This document shows positions 10,150 through 57,024 of a stretch of DNA of 64,000 nt, piece by piece; the stretch's first letter is position 1; every line of letters begins with the position of its first letter. The DNA lies in NCBI GenBank assembly GCA_041649475.1, contig JBAZNA010000001.1:197022-261021 (forward strand), read 5' to 3'. The translations under genes were made by a program, and so were the position numbers. The stretch is from Patescibacteria group bacterium (lineage in GTDB: Bacteria > Patescibacteriota > Patescibacteriia > Magasanikbacterales > GWA2-37-8). The notes under the pieces are model-generated. The model had not been told where the DNA came from, did no database searches, and saw only the letters and a list, made by a program, of their open reading frames with translations.

Positions 10150-10497
10150 ATGGGAATGCGCGCGAAGGACTGGGAGGCGGCCCAGGCCGTTTTCTTGAAA
10201 GAGGCCGGTGCCGACCCTGACCCCGACGATTCGTGGACCGTAGTTCGGTCGCCGAGTTTGCAGGAGCTTCTGCTGGCAAAGGAGCAGGAGTTCCCGGTTG
10301 AGCTCGAGCTCTCCGACGGCCGCAAGATGACCGTGTTCGTCGAGGATATCAAGGACCCCGACGCGCACGGCGAAGTGGAGGTGTACGTAATGTACGTCGC
10401 CAACGGCAACCGGCGCCGGCGGTACCTGCACTTCACCCCCGACGTCTACGAGCCCAGGGTCAACGTCTACCCCGAGCCCAAGGAATCCGTGGGCTGA
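10150..10497 (+). CDS. GC-rich orphan protein 1 (115 aa, acidic, no recognised domain)
   Basis: AGGAG lies 7 nt before the ATG. Hand count gives 38/60 G+C in the first 60 nt. Third codon positions in this frame are overwhelmingly G/C. The gene has its own promoter and terminator. Confidence 0.65.
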   Translation: MGMRAKDWEAAQAVFLKEAGADPDPDDSWTVVRSPSLQELLLAKEQEFPVELELSDGRKMTVFVEDIKDPDAHGEVEVYVMYVANGNRRRRYLHFTPDVYEPRVNVYPEPKESVG

Positions 10498-15117: not shown

Positions 15118-15564
15118 TTATGGCCAGTTGAGTTCCGCCGGCATAGGCCAATCACTGGCGTCGAAACTCACGAATCCCGGCGTCCATTTGAACTTGGACG
15201 CTTCTCCCGGACCAGAAGTGCCCGTGAGCTCGTGAATTTTTTTAGAACTGAGCACCTTGAGCGGCGACATCTCTTTCGGCTCCGGGCTATCGATAGTGGC
15301 CTGGAGAGAATAACCAATCCCTTTCGTGGGATTGTAGAGGAGAAGTTGCGTGGCGACTTTTGCCCGTTTGTGCTCAAGGCAGTCCCACACCATCTTCAAG
15401 AGCGGCTTCTCCACTACGACCACAGGTTCATTATCCTCTGCAGTCAGAGCTGGGAATACACCCATCAGTCCGTGTTCGATCAGCAGTAGGTAACCGTACC
15501 GAAGCTGCCATCCGCTCAGATCCTTTTCGAAGATGCTTCCCAGCGCCGGTCCTTGTTTGCTCAT
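15118..15564 (-). CDS. GC-rich orphan protein 2 (148 aa, no recognised domain)
   Basis: GGAGG lies 5 nt before the ATG at 15564 (MSKQGPALG...). The track start at 15576 is a TTG that overlaps the SD. The gene begins 33 nt after the tRNA-Met 3' end. Confidence 0.6.
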   Translation of the reverse strand: MSKQGPALGSIFEKDLSGWQLRYGYLLLIEHGLMGVFPALTAEDNEPVVVVEKPLLKMVWDCLEHKRAKVATQLLLYNPTKGIGYSLQATIDSPEPKEMSPLKVLSSKKIHELTGTSGPGEASKFKWTPGFVSFDASDWPMPAELNWP

Positions 15565-15597
15565 GGTTTCCTCCAAGATCGAGATCGTTTTCCCGAG

Positions 15598-18020: not shown

Positions 18021-18055
18021 AGATCCTGTTGCTTCGCAAGCAGGATCTCTTTTTC
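18021..18055. terminator. bidirectional intrinsic terminator
   Basis: agatcctg..caggatct stem with an inner ttgc/gcaa extension, followed by a T-run. It sits between convergent genes. Confidence 0.75.
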
Positions 18056-18073: not shown

Positions 18074-18400
18074 TCACAGGACCACTTCTTCGTAGTAGTC
18101 GGCCCGCTCGTGGCTAGCGTAGGGGCTTGATTTGGCATCCTTGAGCGCAGCTGCGGCGAACGGTTCGTCTATGGTGACCTCGGCAACGTTCTCGCACTTG
18201 GCGATCAACAGCTGACAACCATCACAGCCGAATCCGGTCACGGTTGCCAGAACCAGCGCCTCCTTGATCTTCGGTACCCGGCCCTCTTTGCGGATGGCTT
18301 CGGCCACATCGGCCGCGTTTTCTCCACCGCAGTCGGTCCAGAACTTGAAAACAACCTCATCACCCTTGCGCACACTAACGAGTCCGGTTTTTCCGTGCAT
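18074..18400 (-). CDS. GC-rich orphan protein 3 (108 aa; contains a CDGC CxxC motif)
   Basis: AAGGAGG lies 6 nt before the ATG, and the SD starts on the stop codon of the upstream low-GC oxidase gene (cctAAGGAGGggtgatATG). G+C rises abruptly at this junction. Confidence 0.6.
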   Translation of the reverse strand: MHGKTGLVSVRKGDEVVFKFWTDCGGENAADVAEAIRKEGRVPKIKEALVLATVTGFGCDGCQLLIAKCENVAEVTIDEPFAAAALKDAKSSPYASHERADYYEEVVL

Positions 18401-18411
18401 ATCACCCCTCC

Positions 18412-19713
18412 TTAGGTAACTTTACATGTTTTTTCATAAAGATCAAGAAAAATATCCTCCGGGTCAGTTTTCTTTTTAACCGCGTAATAATTATCTTTGT
18501 TCCAGGTTTTCCAAAAGTCATCTTCCGAATAATAGTTGGTGGAAATCAAGGTTTTGATGCCGCCAATAGCCATCAATTCTTCCTCAAACATTTTGTAATA
18601 GTTTTTGTCCGGCCGTTTTGGCAGTCCGTAGATGGCCAGATCTAAAAACAACTCGTCTTTCATTTTTTCAAAAAATTCTCCGGAAATCCATTCATAATGC
18701 CGGGCAATTTTATAAGGCACGCACCATAAAGGGAAAAAATTTATCTCTTTTTCATACCATTTCATAAAATTTTCACCTTCAGAAAACGGGATGAAGGTGT
18801 CAACCGTTACTGGTATCTTATCAGCCGGGATAACTTTGCGAAATTTTTGCACCAGTTTTAATAAGCTTGAAGAATTAATAAATTTACCAAAAAACAAACG
18901 TCCCAGAAATGATTTTGGGGTGACATTGGTCACACCTTTGTCATAGCGGAAAAAATAATCAATGGTTTTAAGATAATCTTCTTTTCGTATTTTTGTGCTT
19001 TTATAATATACCCTCATCCAGTCATAACTGTGGGTGTAGGGCGCCGTGTCAACAAAATTTCCTGTACTTAATACTAACTCGGTGGGGGAATGGATTATAC
19101 CATCCATAAAATCAACATCTTTTTTGGTGTAGTGATCCCAGATGGTAGCTTTATACTCCTTAATATCCACACATTTTTGATAAGTGACTTTAACAAACGG
19201 CTTGGCCGGAACCAATCTGAATTTGAGTTTAGCCAGAAGGCCCAAAGTGCCAAAGGTGCCGTGTATCATTTGAAATAATAAACTGTTGTCATTATCCGGA
19301 GAGCAGGTCAGAACCTCGCCTTGCGCGGTAATAATCTCATATTCCAGACAAGTGTCGTGGAAACCCCCATATTTGTATGACATTGATTCTAATGAACAGC
19401 CGGAAACCGCGCCACCGATGGTAATTGTTTTCAGTTCCGGTACAACAATCGGCACCAGGCCATATTTCAGAGTGGCTGTTGCCAAATCTACAAAAGTTAC
19501 GCCTGATTCGGCAACACAAGTCCGCGCATCAGGGTCAATACTGATAATTTCATTTAAATCACTGATGTCAATTTCTTCATTCCAGTATTTCTGTTCTTCA
19601 GGTTTGGGCACTACATGAGAAACCGCTTTCTTTTTAAATAATACCGGCTTGCCGTTTTTGTGCGCTTTCAGCTGTCCGGCAATTCTTTCAATTTTTTGTG
19701 CATGAGTTATCAT
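18412..19713 (-). CDS. FAD-binding (PCMH-type) oxidoreductase, DHCR24/DWARF1-like
   Basis: 433 aa. ITIGGAVSGCSLESMSYKYGGFHDT and GTFGTLGLLAKLKFRLVP resemble FAD_binding_4 family proteins. Confidence 0.75.
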   Translation of the reverse strand: MITHAQKIERIAGQLKAHKNGKPVLFKKKAVSHVVPKPEEQKYWNEEIDISDLNEIISIDPDARTCVAESGVTFVDLATATLKYGLVPIVVPELKTITIGGAVSGCSLESMSYKYGGFHDTCLEYEIITAQGEVLTCSPDNDNSLLFQMIHGTFGTLGLLAKLKFRLVPAKPFVKVTYQKCVDIKEYKATIWDHYTKKDVDFMDGIIHSPTELVLSTGNFVDTAPYTHSYDWMRVYYKSTKIRKEDYLKTIDYFFRYDKGVTNVTPKSFLGRLFFGKFINSSSLLKLVQKFRKVIPADKIPVTVDTFIPFSEGENFMKWYEKEINFFPLWCVPYKIARHYEWISGEFFEKMKDELFLDLAIYGLPKRPDKNYYKMFEEELMAIGGIKTLISTNYYSEDDFWKTWNKDNYYAVKKKTDPEDIFLDLYEKTCKVT

Positions 19714-19878: not shown

Positions 19879-21693
19879 ATGAAAACATTTAAAATGTTTT
19901 CTGGAGTTGTAGGAATTTTTTTATTTATTCTTCTCGGTCTGGCCGGACCAAACACCGCGTATGCGGCAATAGCAACGTCTCCCAATCTTGGAGATGCAGC
20001 TAGTTTTTCAGTTTTGGCCGGTTTATCAATGAGCGCCGCCGGCGCCGGCACTACAATTTCCGGTGATTTGGGCCTAAGCCCAGGTCTTGAGACCTCAAAA
20101 ACCGGGCCTTGGACAGTGGGGGGATCACAATATTTTGGTACAACTGGTTTGTCCGCGACTGCTCAAGGGGCTGCTTTAATTGCTTATGGTAACCTGGCAG
20201 GTCAAACAACCAGCGGGGTGTGGGGTACAACCCCATGGACTCCGGTGCCGGGTGTGTGGACTTCAGCCAGTGATAAAACGTTTACCGGAACGATCTATCT
20301 TAACGGCACTTACGATGATGTTTGGGTTTTTCAGGTTGGGGGTGACTTTACGTTCAGTGGTTCAATTGTTTTGCAAGGCAATGCCCAGGCCTGTCATGTG
20401 TTTTGGCAGGTTGGCAGCAGTGCGACCATCGGTTCAGACAGTACTTTTGTCGGAACACTCATTGCGCAAACTTCTGTCACGCTGGTCTCTGGTGCAACTG
20501 TTAATGGCAGAATTATAGCTCTCAATGGTTCTTTAACAACAGACGGAAATAATATTTCCGGACCAACATGTGCGACTGCGCCTGTAGTTGCAACACCCGT
20601 ATCCGGTGGCCAGCGTTATGGAACGATTAGTGTTGTTAAAACAGTCATCAACGACAATGGCGGAACCAAGACCGTTGCTGATTTTCCACTGTTCGTTAAT
20701 GGCACAGCCGTTGTTTCTGGTCAGACCAACGTTTTCCCCGCGCCTGCCGGTGTGTATTCTATTACCGAAACCTCTGATCCTAATTACACCCAGACATTTT
20801 CCGGTGATTGCAACTCCACCGGGCATCTGGATCTTAATGTTGGCAATACCGCGGTCTGTATAATTACAAATGATGACATTGGCGCGCCGGTAGTTGTTCC
20901 GCCCGTACCACCACTCATTGATGTGATAAAAGTACCGGATCCTTTGGCTTTGCCGGCTGGTCCAGGTCCGGTGGCATACACCTACACGCTCCGTAATATT
21001 GGAACGGTTCCAGTAACCGACCTAACGATGGTTGGCGATACTTGTAGTCCAATAAATCTTATTTCCGGCGACACAAATGGCGATTCAAAGCTTGATATGG
21101 ATGAAACTTGGGTATACCGCTGTTCAACAACGCTTTCAGAAACTCACACCAACACCGTTGTCGCGACCGGATGGGCCAATGGCATCAGTGCGGTTGATAT
21201 CGCGCATGCTACGGTCGTTGTCGGCGCACCAATAATTCCACCTTTGATTCACATTACAAAAATTCCTAATCCGTTAACACTCTTGGCCGGAGGGGGAATG
21301 GTTACCTATACTAAACAAGTAACCAACCCGGGAACGGTTGCGTTAAGCAACGTCCGTGTTACTGATGATAAATGCAGTTCGGTGGTATATATTTCCGGCG
21401 ACACAAATAGCGATTCAAAGCTTGATCCAACCGAGACATGGACATATACCTGTCGGACCAGAATAACCAAAACTACGACTAACACCGCCGTGGTAACCGG
21501 TGAAGCCAATGGTCTGACTGTGAGAGATTTTGCAGTCGCCACTGTCGTTGTGACCGCGGTTGCTCCGAAATTACCAAATACCGGGGTTGCTTCCAGTGAA
21601 AATCATATTCCCTGGAATAGTATCATACTGGTTGGTGTCCTTATATTAATTTCAACTTCAACAATTGTCGTTCTAAAGAAACGCAGAATTTAA
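19879..21693 (+). CDS. LPXTG-anchored surface protein with an N-terminal ice-binding-like (DUF3494) domain
   Basis: It has a signal peptide and then LGDAASFSVLAGLSMSAAGAGTTISGDLGLSPG, which is the DUF3494 signature. A prealbumin-like middle domain and two roughly 110-aa repeats follow. The C-terminus has LPNTG, a TM helix and KKRRI. Confidence 0.8.
   Translation: MKTFKMFSGVVGIFLFILLGLAGPNTAYAAIATSPNLGDAASFSVLAGLSMSAAGAGTTISGDLGLSPGLETSKTGPWTVGGSQYFGTTGLSATAQGAALIAYGNLAGQTTSGVWGTTPWTPVPGVWTSASDKTFTGTIYLNGTYDDVWVFQVGGDFTFSGSIVLQGNAQACHVFWQVGSSATIGSDSTFVGTLIAQTSVTLVSGATVNGRIIALNGSLTTDGNNISGPTCATAPVVATPVSGGQRYGTISVVKTVINDNGGTKTVADFPLFVNGTAVVSGQTNVFPAPAGVYSITETSDPNYTQTFSGDCNSTGHLDLNVGNTAVCIITNDDIGAPVVVPPVPPLIDVIKVPDPLALPAGPGPVAYTYTLRNIGTVPVTDLTMVGDTCSPINLISGDTNGDSKLDMDETWVYRCSTTLSETHTNTVVATGWANGISAVDIAHATVVVGAPIIPPLIHITKIPNPLTLLAGGGMVTYTKQVTNPGTVALSNVRVTDDKCSSVVYISGDTNSDSKLDPTETWTYTCRTRITKTTTNTAVVTGEANGLTVRDFAVATVVVTAVAPKLPNTGVASSENHIPWNSIILVGVLILISTSTIVVLKKRRI
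20908..21557 (+). repeat. intragenic tandem duplication (2 x about 330 nt domain repeat)
   Basis: PPLIDVIKVPDPL...GDTNGDSKLDMDETWVYRC... matches PPLIHITKIPNPL...GDTNSDSKLDPTETWTYTC.... The 36-nt core at 21061..21096 and 21391..21426 differs at a single base. Confidence 0.8.
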
Positions 21694-25822: not shown

Positions 25823-25865
25823 AAATGATTTTAGTTTTTTAAATTCGGTTGAATACATTATAACA

Positions 25866-25903
25866 TAAAAAAAGAGGCAATTCCACCGGCGGCAGAACTG
25901 CCT
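25866..25903 (-). terminator. intrinsic terminator of GC-rich gene 4
   Basis: On the minus strand: aggcagttc-11 nt loop-gaattgcct followed by cttttttt. Confidence 0.65.
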
Positions 25904-25928
25904 TGAAACCTTCTTCTGGTCTTCCTCC

Positions 25929-26282
25929 TTAGGTGTCAACCGTCTCCACCGGAGGGTTGGGCACTGTTGGCCCCCAGAGAGGGACGAATTCCGTGCTCTG
26001 GAAGTTCTTGCGACACAACTCTTCAAGACCAGGGGTATCGCCATCGTAGATGACCCGGGAGGCCGTAATCACGGCCCGATCCTGCTTGGACCCGAACCCC
26101 ATCTGGGCGGCCAAGTTGTAGGCGTTCCTAGCCGAAGGGGCTTCACCGTTTTTTTGCACTTCCGCGCGAATTGCGTCAGCAAAACGCTTGGTGAGATTGC
26201 CGCCGCGGCCAACCACAACTTTCATCAAAACCACGTCGCCTCGGAAAACGATGACCATTCCCGGAACAGCAGTCGTGGACAT
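25929..26282 (-). CDS. GC-rich orphan protein 4 (117 aa; N-terminal block similar to orphan 3)
   Basis: AAGGAGG lies 7 nt before the ATG. The gene has its own promoter and terminator. It shares 13 of 33 ungapped identities with the 18074..18400 product. Confidence 0.65.
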   Translation of the reverse strand: MSTTAVPGMVIVFRGDVVLMKVVVGRGGNLTKRFADAIRAEVQKNGEAPSARNAYNLAAQMGFGSKQDRAVITASRVIYDGDTPGLEELCRKNFQSTEFVPLWGPTVPNPPVETVDT

Positions 26283-26318
26283 GGAGAATCCTCCTTATCG
26301 CAAACAAAGCGATGTTCA

Positions 26319-26347
26319 ATTTTAACATGGGAATTTGCCAGTGTCAA
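26319..26347 (-). promoter_or_regulatory. promoter of GC-rich gene 4 (TTGACA-N17-TAAAAT)
   Basis: rc reads ttgaca ctggcaaattcccatgt taaaat. Confidence 0.6.
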
Positions 26348-29580: not shown

Positions 29581-29922
29581 CTAGCCGGCGGCGGAAGCGG
29601 CGATGGGGGCGATCTTGGGCTGGATGTCGATCACGGGGATCGGCTCGGGCAGACCGTCGAAGCGCTGGCGGAGCCAGTCGATCTCGGGCTCCGAGGCCTC
29701 GCCCATGAAGATCTCGATGTAGAACGTCCCCCTGATGAGGCCCTCGTACTTCAGCTTGAAGCCGGGGATCTCGTCGTCGAAGTCGGCCTTGTGCGGCCTG
29801 TTGACGTACCTGTTGAAGTCGTTGAGCGAGCAGTACCTGACGCTGCCGTCCACGAACTGGATCCGTACGGCCCTTGTCTGCAAGGTCGTGTCCGGGAACG
29901 TCATCAGCTTCTGGATCGGCAT
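29581..29922 (-). CDS. GC-rich orphan protein 5 (113 aa, no recognised domain)
   Basis: AAGGAG lies 6 nt before the ATG at 29922 (MPIQKLMTFPD...). The longer track ORF start has no SD. Confidence 0.6.
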   Translation of the reverse strand: MPIQKLMTFPDTTLQTRAVRIQFVDGSVRYCSLNDFNRYVNRPHKADFDDEIPGFKLKYEGLIRGTFYIEIFMGEASEPEIDWLRQRFDGLPEPIPVIDIQPKIAPIAASAAG

Positions 29923-30037
29923 CTCCCTCTCCTTGGGACTACGAGCTCGTGTGACCATCTTGTTATGCCTCCCTTGTTTCCGTGTTGGGCCCAATGCCCC
30001 TAAACTTGTTGGCCTTGTCCAGGCCGTGATGGGCTAA

Positions 30038-41855: not shown

Positions 41856-41884
41856 TTGACCAATTGTCTTTTTTATGCTAAAGT
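41856..41884 (+). promoter_or_regulatory. promoter of GC-rich gene 6 (TTGACC-N17-TAAAGT)
   Basis: ttgacc aattgtcttttttatgc taaagt. The 5' UTR contains the hairpin cctgcc-agagaaa-ggcagg. Confidence 0.55.
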
Positions 41885-41931
41885 ATGTGGTTCCTGCCAG
41901 AGAAAGGCAGGTCAGAAAGGAGGCCTCTCGG

Positions 41932-42312
41932 ATGACACGGGTCATGAGTTTGATGGCTTTCTACGCGACTTATCGTCTCTTAAAGGTCGCGTACCGTGCG
42001 ACCGAGAGACAGCTTAGGCTATTCTTCGTCCCCAAGCCGGGGTGCGAGGGGGCCTACGAGGTGGATGAGCAAATCTTCGCCAAGGTTCGGACGCTCATCG
42101 TCAATTCCAGGTCGTTTCAGACCGAAATCTACCCGCTGAACGCCAGTGACGTGGGGGAAGATTTCCGCCTTGGCGACCAGGATTTCACCGGCTCGGTGAT
42201 GGTCTGGCTGAAGGAAGTAGATCCTTTAGACGCACTGTTTACCGACAGAATCAAGGAGGTTGTGTTCGGAGAGGAGAAAGAGTATCGCTTTCAGTGCGGT
42301 TCCCGCAACTAG
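41932..42312 (+). CDS. GC-rich orphan protein 6 (126 aa, no recognised domain)
   Basis: AAGGAGG lies 8 nt before the ATG at 41932 (MTRVMSLMAFY...). The earlier track start lies inside the promoter. Confidence 0.6.
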   Translation: MTRVMSLMAFYATYRLLKVAYRATERQLRLFFVPKPGCEGAYEVDEQIFAKVRTLIVNSRSFQTEIYPLNASDVGEDFRLGDQDFTGSVMVWLKEVDPLDALFTDRIKEVVFGEEKEYRFQCGSRN

Positions 42313-44286: not shown

Positions 44287-45174
44287 CTAAAGTTTGATAC
44301 TTTTGAGAGATATTTTTAAATATAAATTTGAAGTCTTGTTTATTAAGAATTTTAATGTTTTGGGCAATACCCTGTCTAATAATGCAAGAAACGAGATAGT
44401 ATATATTAAGGTTAAAAAATTATTTTTAAGTATCGTGATTATAAAATTTGGTTTATAATCCATCTTCCAGAATATTATATAAAGAATAAAATGTAATATG
44501 CAGAAGAATGCTATTGGCCAGAATGGAGCTTTAAAACCAAGTAGATCCCATTTTTCTGGCTCACCGAATTGGTTATTACTTTCGGGCGAGTTATAAATTT
44601 TATCATTCTTCATAATCCTTGACCAAATATCAGTGAATTTGGTTCCAGATATTATAAGTAGTAACCATTGAAAGCAGTCAGATATAAATTTTATAATATC
44701 GGTTATAATTACCCTCCAAAATAATAATTTTAACCTAAGTTTAAAACCCTTTAGTGGCATGGTTGGTTTTGTATGAAGCAAGTATAGCTCGTCGAGTAAC
44801 ATATTTGCTGTTATTTCTTTATTTTTTTTATAAAATTTGTTCAAGATAACATCATAAAAATACTCATCATTTGAAGTAAAATCTATCGGGCCAGTAACTT
44901 TTTTTATTTTATCTTGGTTACTCAATGATATGTAAGATCCTTTGTCATCTTCTTTAAGTTTTCCATAGCTAACCCTTATGGATAGGGGTTTAATGTTGCC
45001 ATCCTTCAGTACATTTTCATTACTGATGTAAATATAGAATATTGATCCCCAATCGTCTGAACCCATTTTTCTAATTATACTAAAGCCAAATTTGCAATCT
45101 TTTAAAGGAGTGAGATTCAAAAATAATCCATTAGTTCCTATATTAAAATCTTTTATGAAATCTTGATTTTCCAT
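44287..45174 (-). CDS. very AT-rich orphan membrane protein (295 aa)
   Basis: Hand count gives 12/60 G+C in the first 60 nt. It has a soluble N-terminal half and then 3-4 predicted TM helices. No motif recognised. Confidence 0.55.
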   Translation of the reverse strand: MENQDFIKDFNIGTNGLFLNLTPLKDCKFGFSIIRKMGSDDWGSIFYIYISNENVLKDGNIKPLSIRVSYGKLKEDDKGSYISLSNQDKIKKVTGPIDFTSNDEYFYDVILNKFYKKNKEITANMLLDELYLLHTKPTMPLKGFKLRLKLLFWRVIITDIIKFISDCFQWLLLIISGTKFTDIWSRIMKNDKIYNSPESNNQFGEPEKWDLLGFKAPFWPIAFFCILHFILYIIFWKMDYKPNFIITILKNNFLTLIYTISFLALLDRVLPKTLKFLINKTSNLYLKISLKSIKL

Positions 45175-55838: not shown

Positions 55839-56504
55839 ATGGCGACCGCAAAACAGATTCCGTTTTTGATGGGAAGGTTGGTGGAGCATCAGTTTTACTT
55901 CTGTGCTTTGTCCACCGCAAGCGCCACGTGGGCGAGCCAAAACCCGAAAGACGCCATTGCCTTGTGCGTGGCGGCGATCGAGAATCGCCAAAAGGAGCGT
56001 CAGTCCGACCCGGCGCCTTCGCCACTCCTCACCTTGGTCGGTGCCGTCGTGATCTGGCTGGCCGTGAGGTTCGTTGCCAGTGAACACCTGGTGAAGAATA
56101 CCGAGAAGAACGCGCCGGTGAAGATTTCCTACATCTTCGATAAGGTCACCGTGTGGTTCCAGGGCAAGATCGAGGAGCGGGTCGAGGGCGAGATGGCTCT
56201 GTGCTGCCATACCCTGAACTCCGACTCGGACGATAACCTCATCATCAACCAGCTCGGCGGCGAGACCAAGGCCGAGACCGCCCTTGCCGAGGTCTTTGCC
56301 TGCTTGGAGAAGCAACCCAACGGCGAGGATGGTGCGCTACTCACTAACGGCCACGCGAACATCTTCTATGTTCGCAACACCGAAGGTGTGTTGTGCGTGA
56401 TCCAAGTGATCTGGCGCGGTGACGGTTGGACCTTCTACACCCGTTCGGTCGGTTCTCTGGACACATGTACCGAGGGCCGCCGGGTGTTCTCCCGCGCCGC
56501 ATAG
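55839..56504 (+). CDS. GC-rich orphan protein 7 (221 aa; one hydrophobic segment LLTLVGAVVIWLAVRFVA)
   Basis: AAGGAG lies 7 nt before the ATG. A strong terminator follows the gene. No recognisable domain. Confidence 0.6.
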   Translation: MATAKQIPFLMGRLVEHQFYFCALSTASATWASQNPKDAIALCVAAIENRQKERQSDPAPSPLLTLVGAVVIWLAVRFVASEHLVKNTEKNAPVKISYIFDKVTVWFQGKIEERVEGEMALCCHTLNSDSDDNLIINQLGGETKAETALAEVFACLEKQPNGEDGALLTNGHANIFYVRNTEGVLCVIQVIWRGDGWTFYTRSVGSLDTCTEGRRVFSRAA

Positions 56505-56524
56505 TTTGTTCCTTCCTTCCAAGC

Positions 56525-56556
56525 GCCCCGCCTGTCAGATGGTGGGGCATTTTTTT
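56525..56556 (+). terminator. intrinsic terminator
   Basis: gccccgcc-tgtcagat-ggtggggc followed by attttttt. Confidence 0.8.
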
Positions 56557-56565
56557 ATCCAAATC

Positions 56566-56594
56566 TTGACAAAACCCCTCATTTGTGCTATAGT
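56566..56594 (+). promoter_or_regulatory. rnpB promoter (TTGACA-N17-TATAGT, extended TGc)
   Basis: ttgaca aaacccctcatttgtgc tatagt. The -10 ends 7 nt before the P1 stem. Confidence 0.65.
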
Positions 56595-56600
56595 TAACCC

Positions 56601-56994
56601 ATTCATAGCGGATGATCGAGCCGACTTAGTCGGCTAGGAAAGTCCGAACACCCAAGATGGCAGTGGGTAACGCCCACCGCTACGGTGGCAACGCCGTGGT
56701 TGGGAAAGTGGCACAGAGACAATTCTAACCCCGACAAGCTCGGGGTAAAAGGTGAAAAGTGTATGGGGGATTTGGTTCTCGAGACCAAAGCTACTATACT
56801 CGGCTGATAGCAATATCAGTTCGTGCTAAACCCTGCCTGGTGCAAGAGCAGCGTTTCGCGGCGCAAAACCGCGGTTCGAAAAGTTCGCTCGCTAGAACGC
56901 GTTAGCAATAACGCGTCCAGATAAATGATCGTCACCTCGCCCCATTTTTAAACAAAATGGTGCGGAGCACAAAATTCGGCTTATAGCTATGAAT
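56601..56994 (+). ncRNA. rnpB: RNase P RNA (bacterial type A)
   Basis: P1 pairing attcatagc/gctatgaat. P4 strands GGAAAGTCCGAACAC and ACAAAATTCGGCTTAT. Also GGGTAACGCCCAC, GGGAAAGTGGCACAGAGA and AGATAAATGATCG. Confidence 0.9.
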
Positions 56995-57024
56995 AAAAAA
57001 GACGACCCGCAAGGGCCGTCTTTT
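56995..57024. terminator. bidirectional intrinsic terminator
   Basis: aaaaaa gacgaccc-gcaa-gggccgtc tttt, between rnpB (+) and the convergent 57040..58578 gene (-). Confidence 0.75.

What the first reader, a model, noticed from the sequence alone, without database searches (positions are those of the whole stretch)
25866..26347. GC-rich cassette 4 is a probable paralogue of cassette 3
Ungapped by-eye alignment of LVSVRKGDEVVFKFWTDCGGENAADVAEAIRKE (gene 3, from aa 7) with MVIVFRGDVVLMKVVVGRGGNLTKRFADAIRAE (gene 4, from aa 9) gives 13 of 33 identities: V.V..GD.V..K.....GG......A.AIR.E. A shared (A)xxxGFG follows about 20 aa later. So at least two of the seven cassettes belong to one family despite lying 8 kb apart in different contexts. 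Cassette 4 has the best promoter of the set (TTGACA-N17-TAAAAT), a 5' hairpin (atcgc-tttgttt-gcgat), AAGGAGG and a 9-bp terminator with a T7 run. It sits between HU and a type IV pilin gene.
Basis: seen in the sequence. Interest (0 to 1): 0.6.

Follow-up and report, generated by a model that had tools for sequence, protein, structure and literature searches.

The report
Two copies of an uncatalogued small-protein family
The two GC-rich small genes really are distant relatives: both belong to a previously uncatalogued family of about 110-residue proteins shared by ultra-small (CPR) bacteria and phages, whose biochemical function is still unknown.

Summary
Gene 4 (25929-26282, minus strand, 117 aa) and gene 3 (18074-18400, minus strand, 108 aa) are homologous. 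BLASTP gives E=1e-7. The Smith-Waterman score is 77 against 25±4 for shuffles (z=11.9). No other GC-rich ORF in the window is related to them.

A profile search places both in a family of at least 312 clusters at 50% identity, mostly stand-alone proteins of 105-125 aa. Members occur in Patescibacteria, a few other bacterial MAGs, and tailed phages including the isolated jumbo phage Tunturi_5. The family has no Pfam, NCBIfam, PHROG, PADLOC or PDB-sequence match.

The family carries an optional BFD-like cysteine motif. Gene 3 has three of the four cysteines and gene 4 has none. Both window copies have lost the near-invariant FNPRW/GTAD signature.

The two copies are not sister lineages (bootstrap 0.04), so they are old paralogues or separate acquisitions.

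Gene 4 is a self-contained expression unit whose signals are conserved. It is under purifying selection (dN/dS 0.35) and is absent beside HU in 58 related contigs.

Function is unknown. My best guess is a horizontally acquired small ligand-binding accessory protein.

The parts
25929..26282 (-). Gene 4 coding sequence. 117 aa, NCBI WC526_01135 'hypothetical protein'. A divergent, cysteine-free member of the family.
   Evidence: ORF. Exact match P0001. Family HMM E=2e-28. dN/dS of 0.35 against its orthologue. AlphaFold pLDDT 92.3.
26319..26347 (-). Sigma-70-type promoter: -35 TTGACA, 17-nt spacer, TG-extended -10 TAAAAT.
   Evidence: 11 of 12 matches. Both hexamers are identical in orthologue locus L001, and homology breaks just upstream of the -35.
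26297..26313 (-). Hairpin in the 5' untranslated region (ATCGC-TTTGTTT-GCGAT). From the -10 position it should lie at or near the 5' end of the mRNA. I infer that it stabilises the mRNA.
   Evidence: Sequence. It is 17 of 17 identical in L001 although the coding sequence is only 82% identical. The stabiliser role is an inference.
26290..26296 (-). Ribosome-binding site AAGGAGG, 7 nt upstream of the ATG.
   Evidence: conserved in L001.
25866..25903 (-). Intrinsic terminator: stem-loop 25903..25875 followed by a T7 run.
   Evidence: The stem is retained in L001 with base changes.
18074..18400 (-). Gene 3 coding sequence. 108 aa, WC526_01095. A divergent family member with three of the four BFD-like cysteines. 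It follows the FAD_binding_4 oxidoreductase gene (18412..19713) at an 11-nt spacing, consistent with co-transcription.
   Evidence: (E=7e-29). The same arrangement is seen in L007.
18021..18048 (.). Hairpin between gene 3 and the convergent 57-aa ORF, possibly a bidirectional terminator.
   Evidence: where it was scored on the + strand. Use on the minus strand is inferred from the sequence.

Best explanation
**Shown**
- Gene 4 is a real protein-coding gene under purifying selection in a Patescibacteria chromosome.
- It is homologous over its full length to gene 3.
- Both are the most divergent branches of one uncatalogued family of about 105-125-aa cytoplasmic proteins.
- The family consensus is MATQG-VTV..G.VVMKIVAGCDGYNA..LA..LR...AY.LA...GFGC..CLVV....YR.TF..P.FNPRW..GTADY.
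- The family occurs in CPR bacteria, a few other bacteria, and tailed phages.
- The predicted fold is a compact β-hairpin / two-helix / β-hairpin / helix / β-strand unit with no close solved relative.
- The ends of the helical hairpin carry a BFD-like C-x-C...C-x2-C motif. It is complete in 9% of members, has three cysteines in 41% (gene 3 included), and is absent in 20% (gene 4 included).

**Inferred**
- Gene 4 is a horizontally acquired accessory gene, comparable to a phage 'moron'. It carries its own strong promoter, 5' hairpin, ribosome-binding site and terminator. It arrived separately from gene 3 and has been kept by selection since.
- Canonical family members are small stand-alone ligand-binding proteins, or possibly enzymes. 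Their pocket would be formed by the near-invariant K, FG, YRxTF, FNPRW and GTAD residues. They act in nucleotide or DNA metabolism or in phage-host conflict.
- The cysteine motif is an optional metal or [2Fe-2S] site.
- Gene 4 has lost the cysteines and most pocket residues. It therefore most likely acts by binding a partner rather than by catalysis.

**Confidence.** About 0.9 for the descriptive part. About 0.25 for the nucleotide-related ligand-binding function.
For: **Homology and family**
- Pairwise homology.
- Family size: 312 representatives at E≤1e-3 from an exhaustive HMM search. A second profile search gave 220 proteins, all unnamed or 'hypothetical'.
- Only genes 3 and 4 match the family in the window.

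**Real and selected gene**
- dN/dS is 0.35 for gene 4 and 0.27 for gene 3, with dS similar to the neighbouring genes.
- The promoter, hairpin and ribosome-binding site are conserved while the coding sequence is 82% identical.

**Fold**
- pLDDT 92.3 and pTM 0.86.
- Foldseek found nothing significant in PDB or BFVD.

**Cysteine motif**
- The cysteines are gained and lost together: CCC in 43 and none in 28 of 93 sequences. Among 259 members the pattern is xCCC in 106, CCCC in 23 and none in 52.
- Sub-threshold Fer2_BFD hits recur on residues ~19-62 in several members.

**Presence in phages**
- Seven IMG/VR contigs carry the family, with terminases, DnaB or DNA ligase nearby.
- Tunturiibacter phage Tunturi_5 gp18 lies in a replication module.

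**Nucleotide link**
- Fusions to Ppnp nucleoside phosphorylase.
- Phage neighbours include MazG, HD_4, YspA-SLOG, Pyr_excise, DNA ligase and nucleases.

**Acquisition**
- The gene is absent from 80 related RNase Y loci, 58 of which contain HU. The closest relative has HU, an unidentified 194-aa ORF, a 205-aa ORF, then the pilin.
- GC3 is 0.67 against a median of 0.47.
- The two window copies are not sister lineages.
Against: - No biochemical evidence exists for any member.
- The Ppnp fusions (P0007, P0076) look like one evolutionary event.
- Phage replication modules are rich in nucleotide-metabolism genes anyway, so that association is weak.
- No conserved neighbour exists in cellular genomes.
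- Gene 4 is not inside a recognisable prophage and has no flanking repeats.
- Orthologue pairs have dS of 0.4-0.7, so the acquisition is not recent, yet the GC excess persists and is unexplained.
- Gene 3 and gene 4 lack the motifs on which the pocket inference rests.
Confidence: 0.6

Rival explanations
1. The family is a small iron-sulfur (BFD-like [2Fe-2S]) electron-transfer protein. Gene 3 would serve as redox partner of the FAD-dependent oxidoreductase encoded immediately upstream. Gene 4 would be a cysteine-free derivative, perhaps a metal-independent alternate, like the C+/C- ribosomal protein pairs.
For: - The cysteine spacing C-x34-35-C-x2-C matches the BFD pattern, and 23 of 259 members carry the full CxC...CxxC.
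- Fer2_BFD hits recur at E=7e-5 to 7e-3 on the same residues.
- hhalign places the motifs in the expected register.
- Gene 3 is 11 nt downstream of an FAD_binding_4 gene, and the same arrangement is seen in L007.
- The cysteines are gained and lost as a unit.
Against: - All Pfam hits are below the gathering score. Gene 3 scores 14.1 bits against a cut-off of 26, and gene 4 has no hit.
- hhalign probability is 2.6%.
- 20% of members, including gene 4, have no cysteines yet keep the other invariant residues, so a cluster cannot be the core function.
- The link to the FAD oxidase is not kept in L004 or in any other locus.
Confidence: 0.2
2. The family is a phage-host conflict protein, for example an anti-defence protein or a sponge that sequesters a nucleotide signal. 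It would be carried by phages and left in, or co-opted by, CPR chromosomes.
For: - Members are small, stand-alone and patchily distributed, with several copies in some genomes.
- The family is present in diverse phages, including jumbo phages, in early or replication regions.
- Amino-acid change is 2-3 times faster than in the neighbouring genes.
- Lineage-specific loss of otherwise invariant motifs.
- Tandem duplications and varied C-terminal extensions.
- Composition is foreign in CPR chromosomes but not in phages.
Against: - No PADLOC hit and no similarity to any solved anti-defence protein.
- The cellular copies sit among housekeeping genes, not in prophages or defence islands.
- They have been inherited vertically under purifying selection for a long time.
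Confidence: 0.15
3. The GC-rich segment is a structured non-coding RNA or a spurious ORF, and the protein similarity is a by-product of shared composition.
For: GC-rich islands in AT-rich genomes often mark structured RNAs. RNase P RNA is one such island in this window.
Against: - Shuffles that keep composition never reach the observed score.
- The reading frame, start and length are kept in all homologues.
- dN/dS is about 0.3.
- Hundreds of homologues share conserved amino-acid motifs.
- The AlphaFold model is confident.
- There is no Rfam hit at these coordinates.
Confidence: 0.01
4. Gene 4 arose by a recent duplication of gene 3 within this genome.
For: Both lie within 8 kb, both are similarly GC-rich (0.58), and both lack the FNPRW motif.
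Against: - They share only 28% identity over the global alignment, with dS saturated.
- They are not sisters in the family tree (bootstrap 0.04), and gene 3 ranks 80th of 93 among gene 4's neighbours.
- Gene 4 shares an insertion (xxxKNG) and the FGSxxDRxVITA motif with P0025 and P0024, not with gene 3.
Confidence: 0.04

Closest known systems
BFD-like [2Fe-2S]-binding domain (Pfam PF04324; Bfd, and the central domains of NifU and NirB)
   Same: A helical hairpin has cysteines at both ends with spacing C-x-C...(about 32-35)...C-x2-C. Several family members give Fer2_BFD hits over profile positions 1-42. hhalign puts the motifs in the same register.
   Different: All hits are below the Pfam threshold. 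Most members have three cysteines or none. The motif is embedded in a larger α/β fold with extra invariant residues (K, FNPRW, GTAD) that BFD domains lack. Gene 4 has none of the cysteines.
T-fold (tunnelling-fold) enzymes: QueF-like, FolX, FolB, GTP cyclohydrolase I
N-terminal half of Ntn hydrolases (proteasome subunits, HslV)
   Different: The protein is half the size of an Ntn fold. The Thr is not consistently N-terminal (MATQG or MTQG), and it is also conserved in internal repeats. Gene 4 lacks it.
Phage 'morons' and other accessory genes acquired by horizontal transfer
   Same: Gene 4 has its own promoter and terminator, a composition that departs from the host, homologues in phages, and a variable insertion site between housekeeping genes.
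   Different: It is not inside a prophage. Gene 3 has no promoter of its own. The copies have been inherited vertically for a long time.

Membership tests
Uncatalogued MATQG...FNPRW family (defined here) | Full-length match to the family profile | tested here: met
   hmmsearch with the A2 profile gives gene 4 E=2.1e-28 and gene 3 E=7.3e-29. No other window ORF matches.
Uncatalogued MATQG...FNPRW family | Near-invariant core residues K21, G28, F63 and G64 (gene 4 numbering) | tested here: met
   All four are present in both genes. K occurs in 258 of 259 members, G28 in 255 and G64 in 254.
Uncatalogued MATQG...FNPRW family | C-terminal signature YRxTFxxPxFNPRWxxGTAD | tested here: not met
   Gene 4 has CRKNFQSTEFVPLWGPTVPNP, which keeps F94, F99, P101 and W103 only. 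Gene 3 has AAAALKDAKSSPYASHERADY, which keeps P101, A108, D109 and Y110 only. Both are members by homology but are degenerate at this motif.
Uncatalogued MATQG...FNPRW family | N-terminal TQG motif | tested here: not met
   Gene 4 has VPG. Gene 3 has KTG, which keeps G8 and has the Thr displaced by one position.
BFD-like [2Fe-2S] domain (PF04324) | Score at or above the Pfam gathering threshold of 26 bits | tested here: not met
   Gene 3 scores 14.1 bits (E=0.062). Gene 4 has no hit. The best family members reach 23.5 bits.
BFD-like [2Fe-2S] domain (PF04324) | Four cysteine ligands, C-x-C...C-x2-C | tested here: not met
   Gene 4 has 0 of 4 (V, R, S, D at those positions). Gene 3 has 3 of 4.
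BFD-like [2Fe-2S] domain (PF04324) | A bound [2Fe-2S] cluster | not testable with these tools
   This needs UV-visible and EPR spectroscopy on purified protein.
T-fold superfamily | ββααββ core topology | tested here: met
   Elements in the model: E8-14, E17-24, H28-45, H51-61, E69-73, E77-79, then H86-92 and E112-116.
T-fold superfamily | Significant structural similarity to solved T-fold proteins | tested here: inconclusive
T-fold superfamily | Oligomeric barrel with the substrate site at subunit interfaces | not testable with these tools
   No multimer prediction was available.
Ntn hydrolases | N-terminal Thr, Ser or Cys nucleophile and a four-layer αββα fold of about 180-230 residues | tested here: not met
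Phage moron-like autonomous accessory cassette | Own promoter and terminator flanking a single ORF | tested here: met
   This holds for gene 4 but not for gene 3.
Phage moron-like autonomous accessory cassette | Location inside a prophage or phage genome | tested here: not met
   The flanks are HU, RNase Y, a pilin and an acyltransferase. There are no flanking repeats. Other family members do lie in phage genomes.

The most novel reading that the evidence does not exclude
The family is a new class of small proteins exchanged between phages and CPR bacteria. Oligomers would bind a nucleotide-like ligand, either a nucleotide-pool modulator or an immune-signal sponge, and the site would be tuned by an optional Fe-S or metal centre. 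On this reading the window genome keeps a cysteine-containing copy (gene 3) and a cysteine-free copy (gene 4) as metal-dependent and metal-independent alternates. The persistent GC-richness of CPR-hosted copies would reflect repeated import from a pool of about 60% GC, or GC-biased gene conversion.
Probability: 0.1. Interest if true: 0.7.

Novelty: new variant of a known kind. Interest (0 to 1): 0.45.

Why it matters
The finding turns two orphan ORFs into members of a sizeable family of at least 312 clusters at 50% identity. The family is well conserved, has a confident predicted structure, and is missing from Pfam, NCBIfam, PHROGs and PADLOC. It is shared by CPR bacteria and phages, including one cultured jumbo phage, so it can be studied experimentally. 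It also provides a concrete case of gene flow into streamlined CPR genomes. CPR-hosted copies are on average 10 percentage points richer in GC than their surroundings, while phage copies are not. That pattern is unexplained and bears on how foreign genes persist in these genomes. It does not solve a long-standing question, and the biochemical role remains unknown.

Tried and rejected
- **Known families.** Pfam, PHROGs, NCBIfam and PADLOC scans gave nothing above threshold. I scanned both genes, 93 family members, and the phage members separately.
- **Solved structures by sequence.** PDB searches with a single protein and with the family profile gave only chance-level hits.
- **Relatedness to other GC-rich ORFs.** Rejected by pairwise shuffles and by the family HMM. 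Four of them also have no match in isolated phages.
- **Mobile-element boundaries.** There are no meaningful direct or inverted repeats around gene 4.
- **Plasmids.** No match in PLSDB.
- **Conserved neighbours.** None was found across 15 genome loci and 4 long contigs.
- **Highly expressed codon usage as the cause of high GC3.** Rejected because HU, used as a proxy for high expression, has GC3 of 0.37.
- **DNA-mimic idea.** The family pI is mixed (median 5.6), and gene 4 has pI 7.9.
- **Failed or uninformative calls.** The first loci search with the 93-sequence alignment failed because it had no conserved stretch. One tree script timed out, and one had invalid distances. A literature search for the FNPRW motif returned nothing.

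Full report
**1. The observation**

- The stretch 25866-26347 holds one ORF on the minus strand, 25929..26282. It encodes 117 aa starting MSTTAVPGMVIVFRGD.
- The second gene is 18074..18400 on the minus strand, 108 aa.
- BLASTP gives 38% identity over 58 residues, E=1e-7.
- The Smith-Waterman score is 77, against 25.4±4.3 in 1000 composition-preserving shuffles. That is z=11.9, and no shuffle reached the score.
- The other pairs among six GC-rich ORFs give z of 3.5 or less.
  - TTGACA-17-TAAAAT with a TG extension (26347..26319, 11 of 12 matches);
  - a 5' hairpin (26313..26297);
  - AAGGAGG 7 nt before the ATG;
  - a terminator stem (25903..25875) followed by T7.
- The neighbours are HU, RNase Y and a type IV pilin with N_methyl and T2SSG domains.

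**2. It is a gene for a protein, and it is under selection**

- Both products exist in public databases as 'hypothetical protein' of a Patescibacteria MAG. The locus tags are WC526_01135 and WC526_01095, on a 963-kb contig.
- Close homologues are rare:
  - P0002 is 76% identical to gene 4 and is also followed by the pilin gene;
  - P0004 is 72% identical to gene 3 and is also preceded by the oxidoreductase gene;
  - P0005 and P0006 are about 54% identical to gene 3.
- The five sequences align from the start codon to the C-terminus.
- Against its orthologue, gene 4 has dN/dS of 0.35 with dS of 0.41. Gene 3 has dN/dS of 0.27 with dS of 0.67.
- The adjacent pilin and oxidoreductase genes have similar dS (0.58 and 0.69) but dN/dS of 0.14 and 0.09.
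- So both genes were inherited together with their neighbours. They are constrained, but they change amino acids 2-3 times faster than those neighbours.
- Between the window and L001 the -35 box, the -10 box, the 17-nt hairpin and the ribosome-binding site are identical, while the coding sequence is 82% identical. Homology stops just upstream of the -35 box.
- A non-coding RNA or a spurious ORF is excluded. There is also no Rfam hit at these coordinates.

**3. The family is much larger than two genes**

- An exhaustive HMM search with the five-sequence alignment found 312 representatives at E≤1e-3 and 56 at E≤1e-10. Nearly all are stand-alone proteins of 105-125 aa.
- A second profile search found 220 proteins. 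All are unnamed or 'hypothetical', apart from one automatic 'nitrite reductase large subunit' label.
- The core consensus is MATQGLVTV..G.VVMKIVAGCDGYNA..LA..LR...AY.LA...GFGC..CLVVMT....YR.TF.QP.FNPRWE.GTAD..VV.
- Among 259 members, many residues are near-invariant (gene 4 numbering). These are T6, Q7, G8, K21 (258 of 259), G28, F63, G64, Y90, R91, T93, F94, P97, F99, N100, P101, R102, W103, G106, A108 and D109.
- Gene 4 keeps only G8, K21, G28, F63, G64, F94, F99, P101 and W103.
- Gene 3 keeps G8, K21, G28, F63, G64, P101, A108, D109 and Y110.
- Both are therefore degenerate members that have lost the FNPRW/GTAD signature.
- None of the libraries knows the family: Pfam, NCBIfam, PHROGs, PADLOC or PDB sequences.

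**4. Where the family lives**

- In species-representative genomes it occurs in several CPR groups: Parcubacteria, Saccharibacteria, Uhrbacteria, Doudnabacteria, Gracilibacteria and Campbellbacteria.
- It also occurs in MAGs labelled Gammaproteobacteria, Bdellovibrionales and Anaerolineae.
- It is also in bona fide phages:
  - Seven IMG/VR contigs carry it. These contigs also hold terminase large subunits, DnaB, DNA ligase, HNH and PD-(D/E)XK nucleases, an SMC-like ATPase, MazG, HD_4 and YspA-SLOG genes.
  - A jumbo-phage-like contig has it next to Pyr_excise.
  - In the isolated 309-kb Tunturiibacter phage Tunturi_5 it is gp18, which lies between a DNA methyltransferase/ATPase and the primase.
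- No plasmid match was found.
- In cellular genomes there is no conserved neighbour. The gene sits alone among housekeeping genes or among other unannotated small ORFs.
- One copy lies inside the rpsP-khpA-trmD cluster.
- One other MAG also has two copies.

**5. Structure**

- With the 93-sequence alignment, AlphaFold2 gives pLDDT 92.3 and pTM 0.86 for gene 4.
- The elements are β8-14, β17-24, α28-45, α51-61, β69-73, β77-79, α86-92 and β112-116.
- Foldseek finds nothing significant in PDB or BFVD. The AlphaFold database could not be searched.
- The ββααββ core has T-fold-like topology, but membership of any known superfamily is not established.
Gene 3 does, however, match the same profile end to end.

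**6. The cysteine motif**

- Three positions are cysteine together or not at all. They are 26, 65 and 68 in gene 4 numbering.
- In 93 sequences the pattern is CCC in 43 and none in 28.
- Counting position 24 as well, 259 members give xCCC in 106, CCCC in 23 and none in 52.
- The four-cysteine form is C-x-C...C-x2-C with the spacing of BFD-like [2Fe-2S] domains.
- Several such members give Fer2_BFD hits on residues ~19-62 at E=7e-5 to 7e-3. All are below the gathering score.
This is a lead, not proof.
- Gene 3 has three of the cysteines and gene 4 has none (R, S, D in their place).
- One fifth of the family lacks the cysteines yet keeps the other invariant residues. The putative metal site is therefore optional rather than the core function.

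**7. Relationship of the two window copies**

- In a neighbour-joining tree of 93 members, the gene 4 type and the gene 3 type are each monophyletic (bootstrap 1.0 and 0.99).
- Together they form a clade in only 4% of replicates, and gene 3 ranks 80th of 93 among gene 4's neighbours.
- Gene 4 groups with P0025 and P0024. It shares with P0025 a four-residue insertion (xxxKNG) and the FGSxxDRxVITA motif.
- Long-branch attraction would pull the two types together, yet they stay apart.
- They are therefore ancient paralogues or separate acquisitions, not a recent duplication.

**8. Acquisition and composition**

- Of 80 metagenome loci that encode RNase Y relatives (38-87% identity), 58 also encode HU. 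None holds a family member.
- The slot downstream of HU differs in almost every relative.
- In the closest relative (87% identity) the order is HU, an unidentified 194-aa ORF, a 205-aa ORF, then the pilin.
- There are no flanking repeats around gene 4.
- Gene 4 has GC3 of 0.67 and gene 3 has 0.68, against a window median of 0.466. HU has 0.37, so codon use linked to high expression is not the cause.
- Across loci, CPR-hosted copies exceed their flanks by +0.105 GC on average, and 14 of 17 exceed them by +0.075 or more.
- Copies in other bacterial MAGs average +0.008 and phage copies average -0.004. The Mann-Whitney test for CPR greater than phage gives p=1.5e-4, although the copies are not all independent.
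- CPR-hosted copies cluster at about 0.57-0.63 GC, close to the copies carried by phages of 0.56-0.60 GC.
- This fits import from a pool richer in GC. It does not explain why the excess persists across dS of 0.4-0.7.

**9. What it most likely does**

Shown:
- It is an expressed-looking, selected, single-domain cytoplasmic protein of a new family shared by phages and CPR bacteria.

Inferred:
- The invariant polar and aromatic residues (K, R, N, W, D, Y/H) form a ligand site.
- The only functional links point towards nucleotide or DNA metabolism, and each is weak:
  - fusions to Ppnp nucleoside phosphorylase (37.9 and 28 bits, both above the threshold, but probably one evolutionary event);
  - phage neighbours from replication, repair and nucleotide-hydrolase modules;
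  - the T-fold-like topology.
- Gene 4 lacks most of the putative site, so I expect a binding role rather than a catalytic one.
- I give the functional guess about 0.25.
- The Fe-S redox-partner reading (0.2) and the phage-host conflict reading (0.15) remain open.

**10. Verdict**

- What is new is the family itself. It has a confident predicted fold, is in no catalogue, and is shared between phages and CPR bacteria.
- Its function is unknown.

Noticed in passing
window 10150-10497(+), 15118-15576(-), 29581-29994(-), 41875-42312(+), 55839-56504(+): Five further ORFs are GC3 outliers, with GC3 of 0.62-0.90 against a window median of 0.47. They are unrelated to genes 3 and 4 and to each other by pairwise shuffles and by the family HMM. 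They have no Pfam or PHROG hit, and the four tested have no match in isolated phages. Whether all of them are real genes was not established.
   Followed up: partly
window 56600-56999 (+): A bacterial RNase P RNA, class A (175 bits), starts immediately after GC-rich island 7. That island is GC-rich from 55851 to 56600.
   Followed up: no
L004 3119-3838; L057 3837-4118; L066 7108-7491; L067 7111-7434; L068 7048-7374; L071 4680-5135; L092 1527-2144: In relatives of the window organism, the slot just downstream of HU is hypervariable. It often holds a different small GC-rich ORF, with GC3 of 0.62-0.83. These include a second, GC-rich HU paralogue (L057) and two cysteine/histidine-rich basic proteins of 107-108 aa (L067, L068). 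None belongs to the family.
   Followed up: partly
CPR-hosted family loci (L010, L016, L017, L032, L034, L035, L041-L043, window) versus phage loci L025-L031, L037, L039: Family genes in CPR chromosomes are on average 0.105 richer in GC than their flanks, with high GC3. Phage copies match their genomes. The cause is unexplained.
   Followed up: partly
window 18412-19713 (-) and 18074-18400 (-): Gene 3 starts 11 nt after the stop of an FAD_binding_4 oxidoreductase gene, and its ribosome-binding site overlaps that stop codon. The same arrangement is seen in L007, but not in L004.
   Followed up: partly
window 19879-21693 (+): A 604-aa secreted-looking protein carries an Ice_binding-like domain (E=2.9e-32) and DUF7507.
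   Followed up: no
window 44287-45174 (-): This is a strongly AT-rich island. The 295-aa ORF has GC of 0.28 and GC3 of 0.28, and the local window GC is 0.26-0.29. It deviates in the opposite direction from the GC-rich ORFs.
   Followed up: no
window 25826-25880 versus L001 1385-1437: The roughly 55 nt between the gene 4 terminator and the pilin start codon are 100% identical between the window and L001, although the flanking coding sequences have diverged by 16-18%. This suggests a strongly constrained pilin promoter or leader.
   Followed up: no
L042 3317-3655: One family member is inserted on the opposite strand within the otherwise conserved rpsP - KH-domain (khpA) - trmD ribosome-maturation gene cluster.
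   Followed up: no
P0007, P0076, P0043 (L027 6001-7026), P0071: The family has multidomain forms. These are a tandem double domain plus Ppnp (P0007), a single domain plus Ppnp (P0076), a phage double domain plus an unknown C-terminal region (P0043), and a form whose C-terminal region looks by eye like an HD/small-alarmone-hydrolase motif but gave no Pfam hit (P0071).
   Followed up: partly
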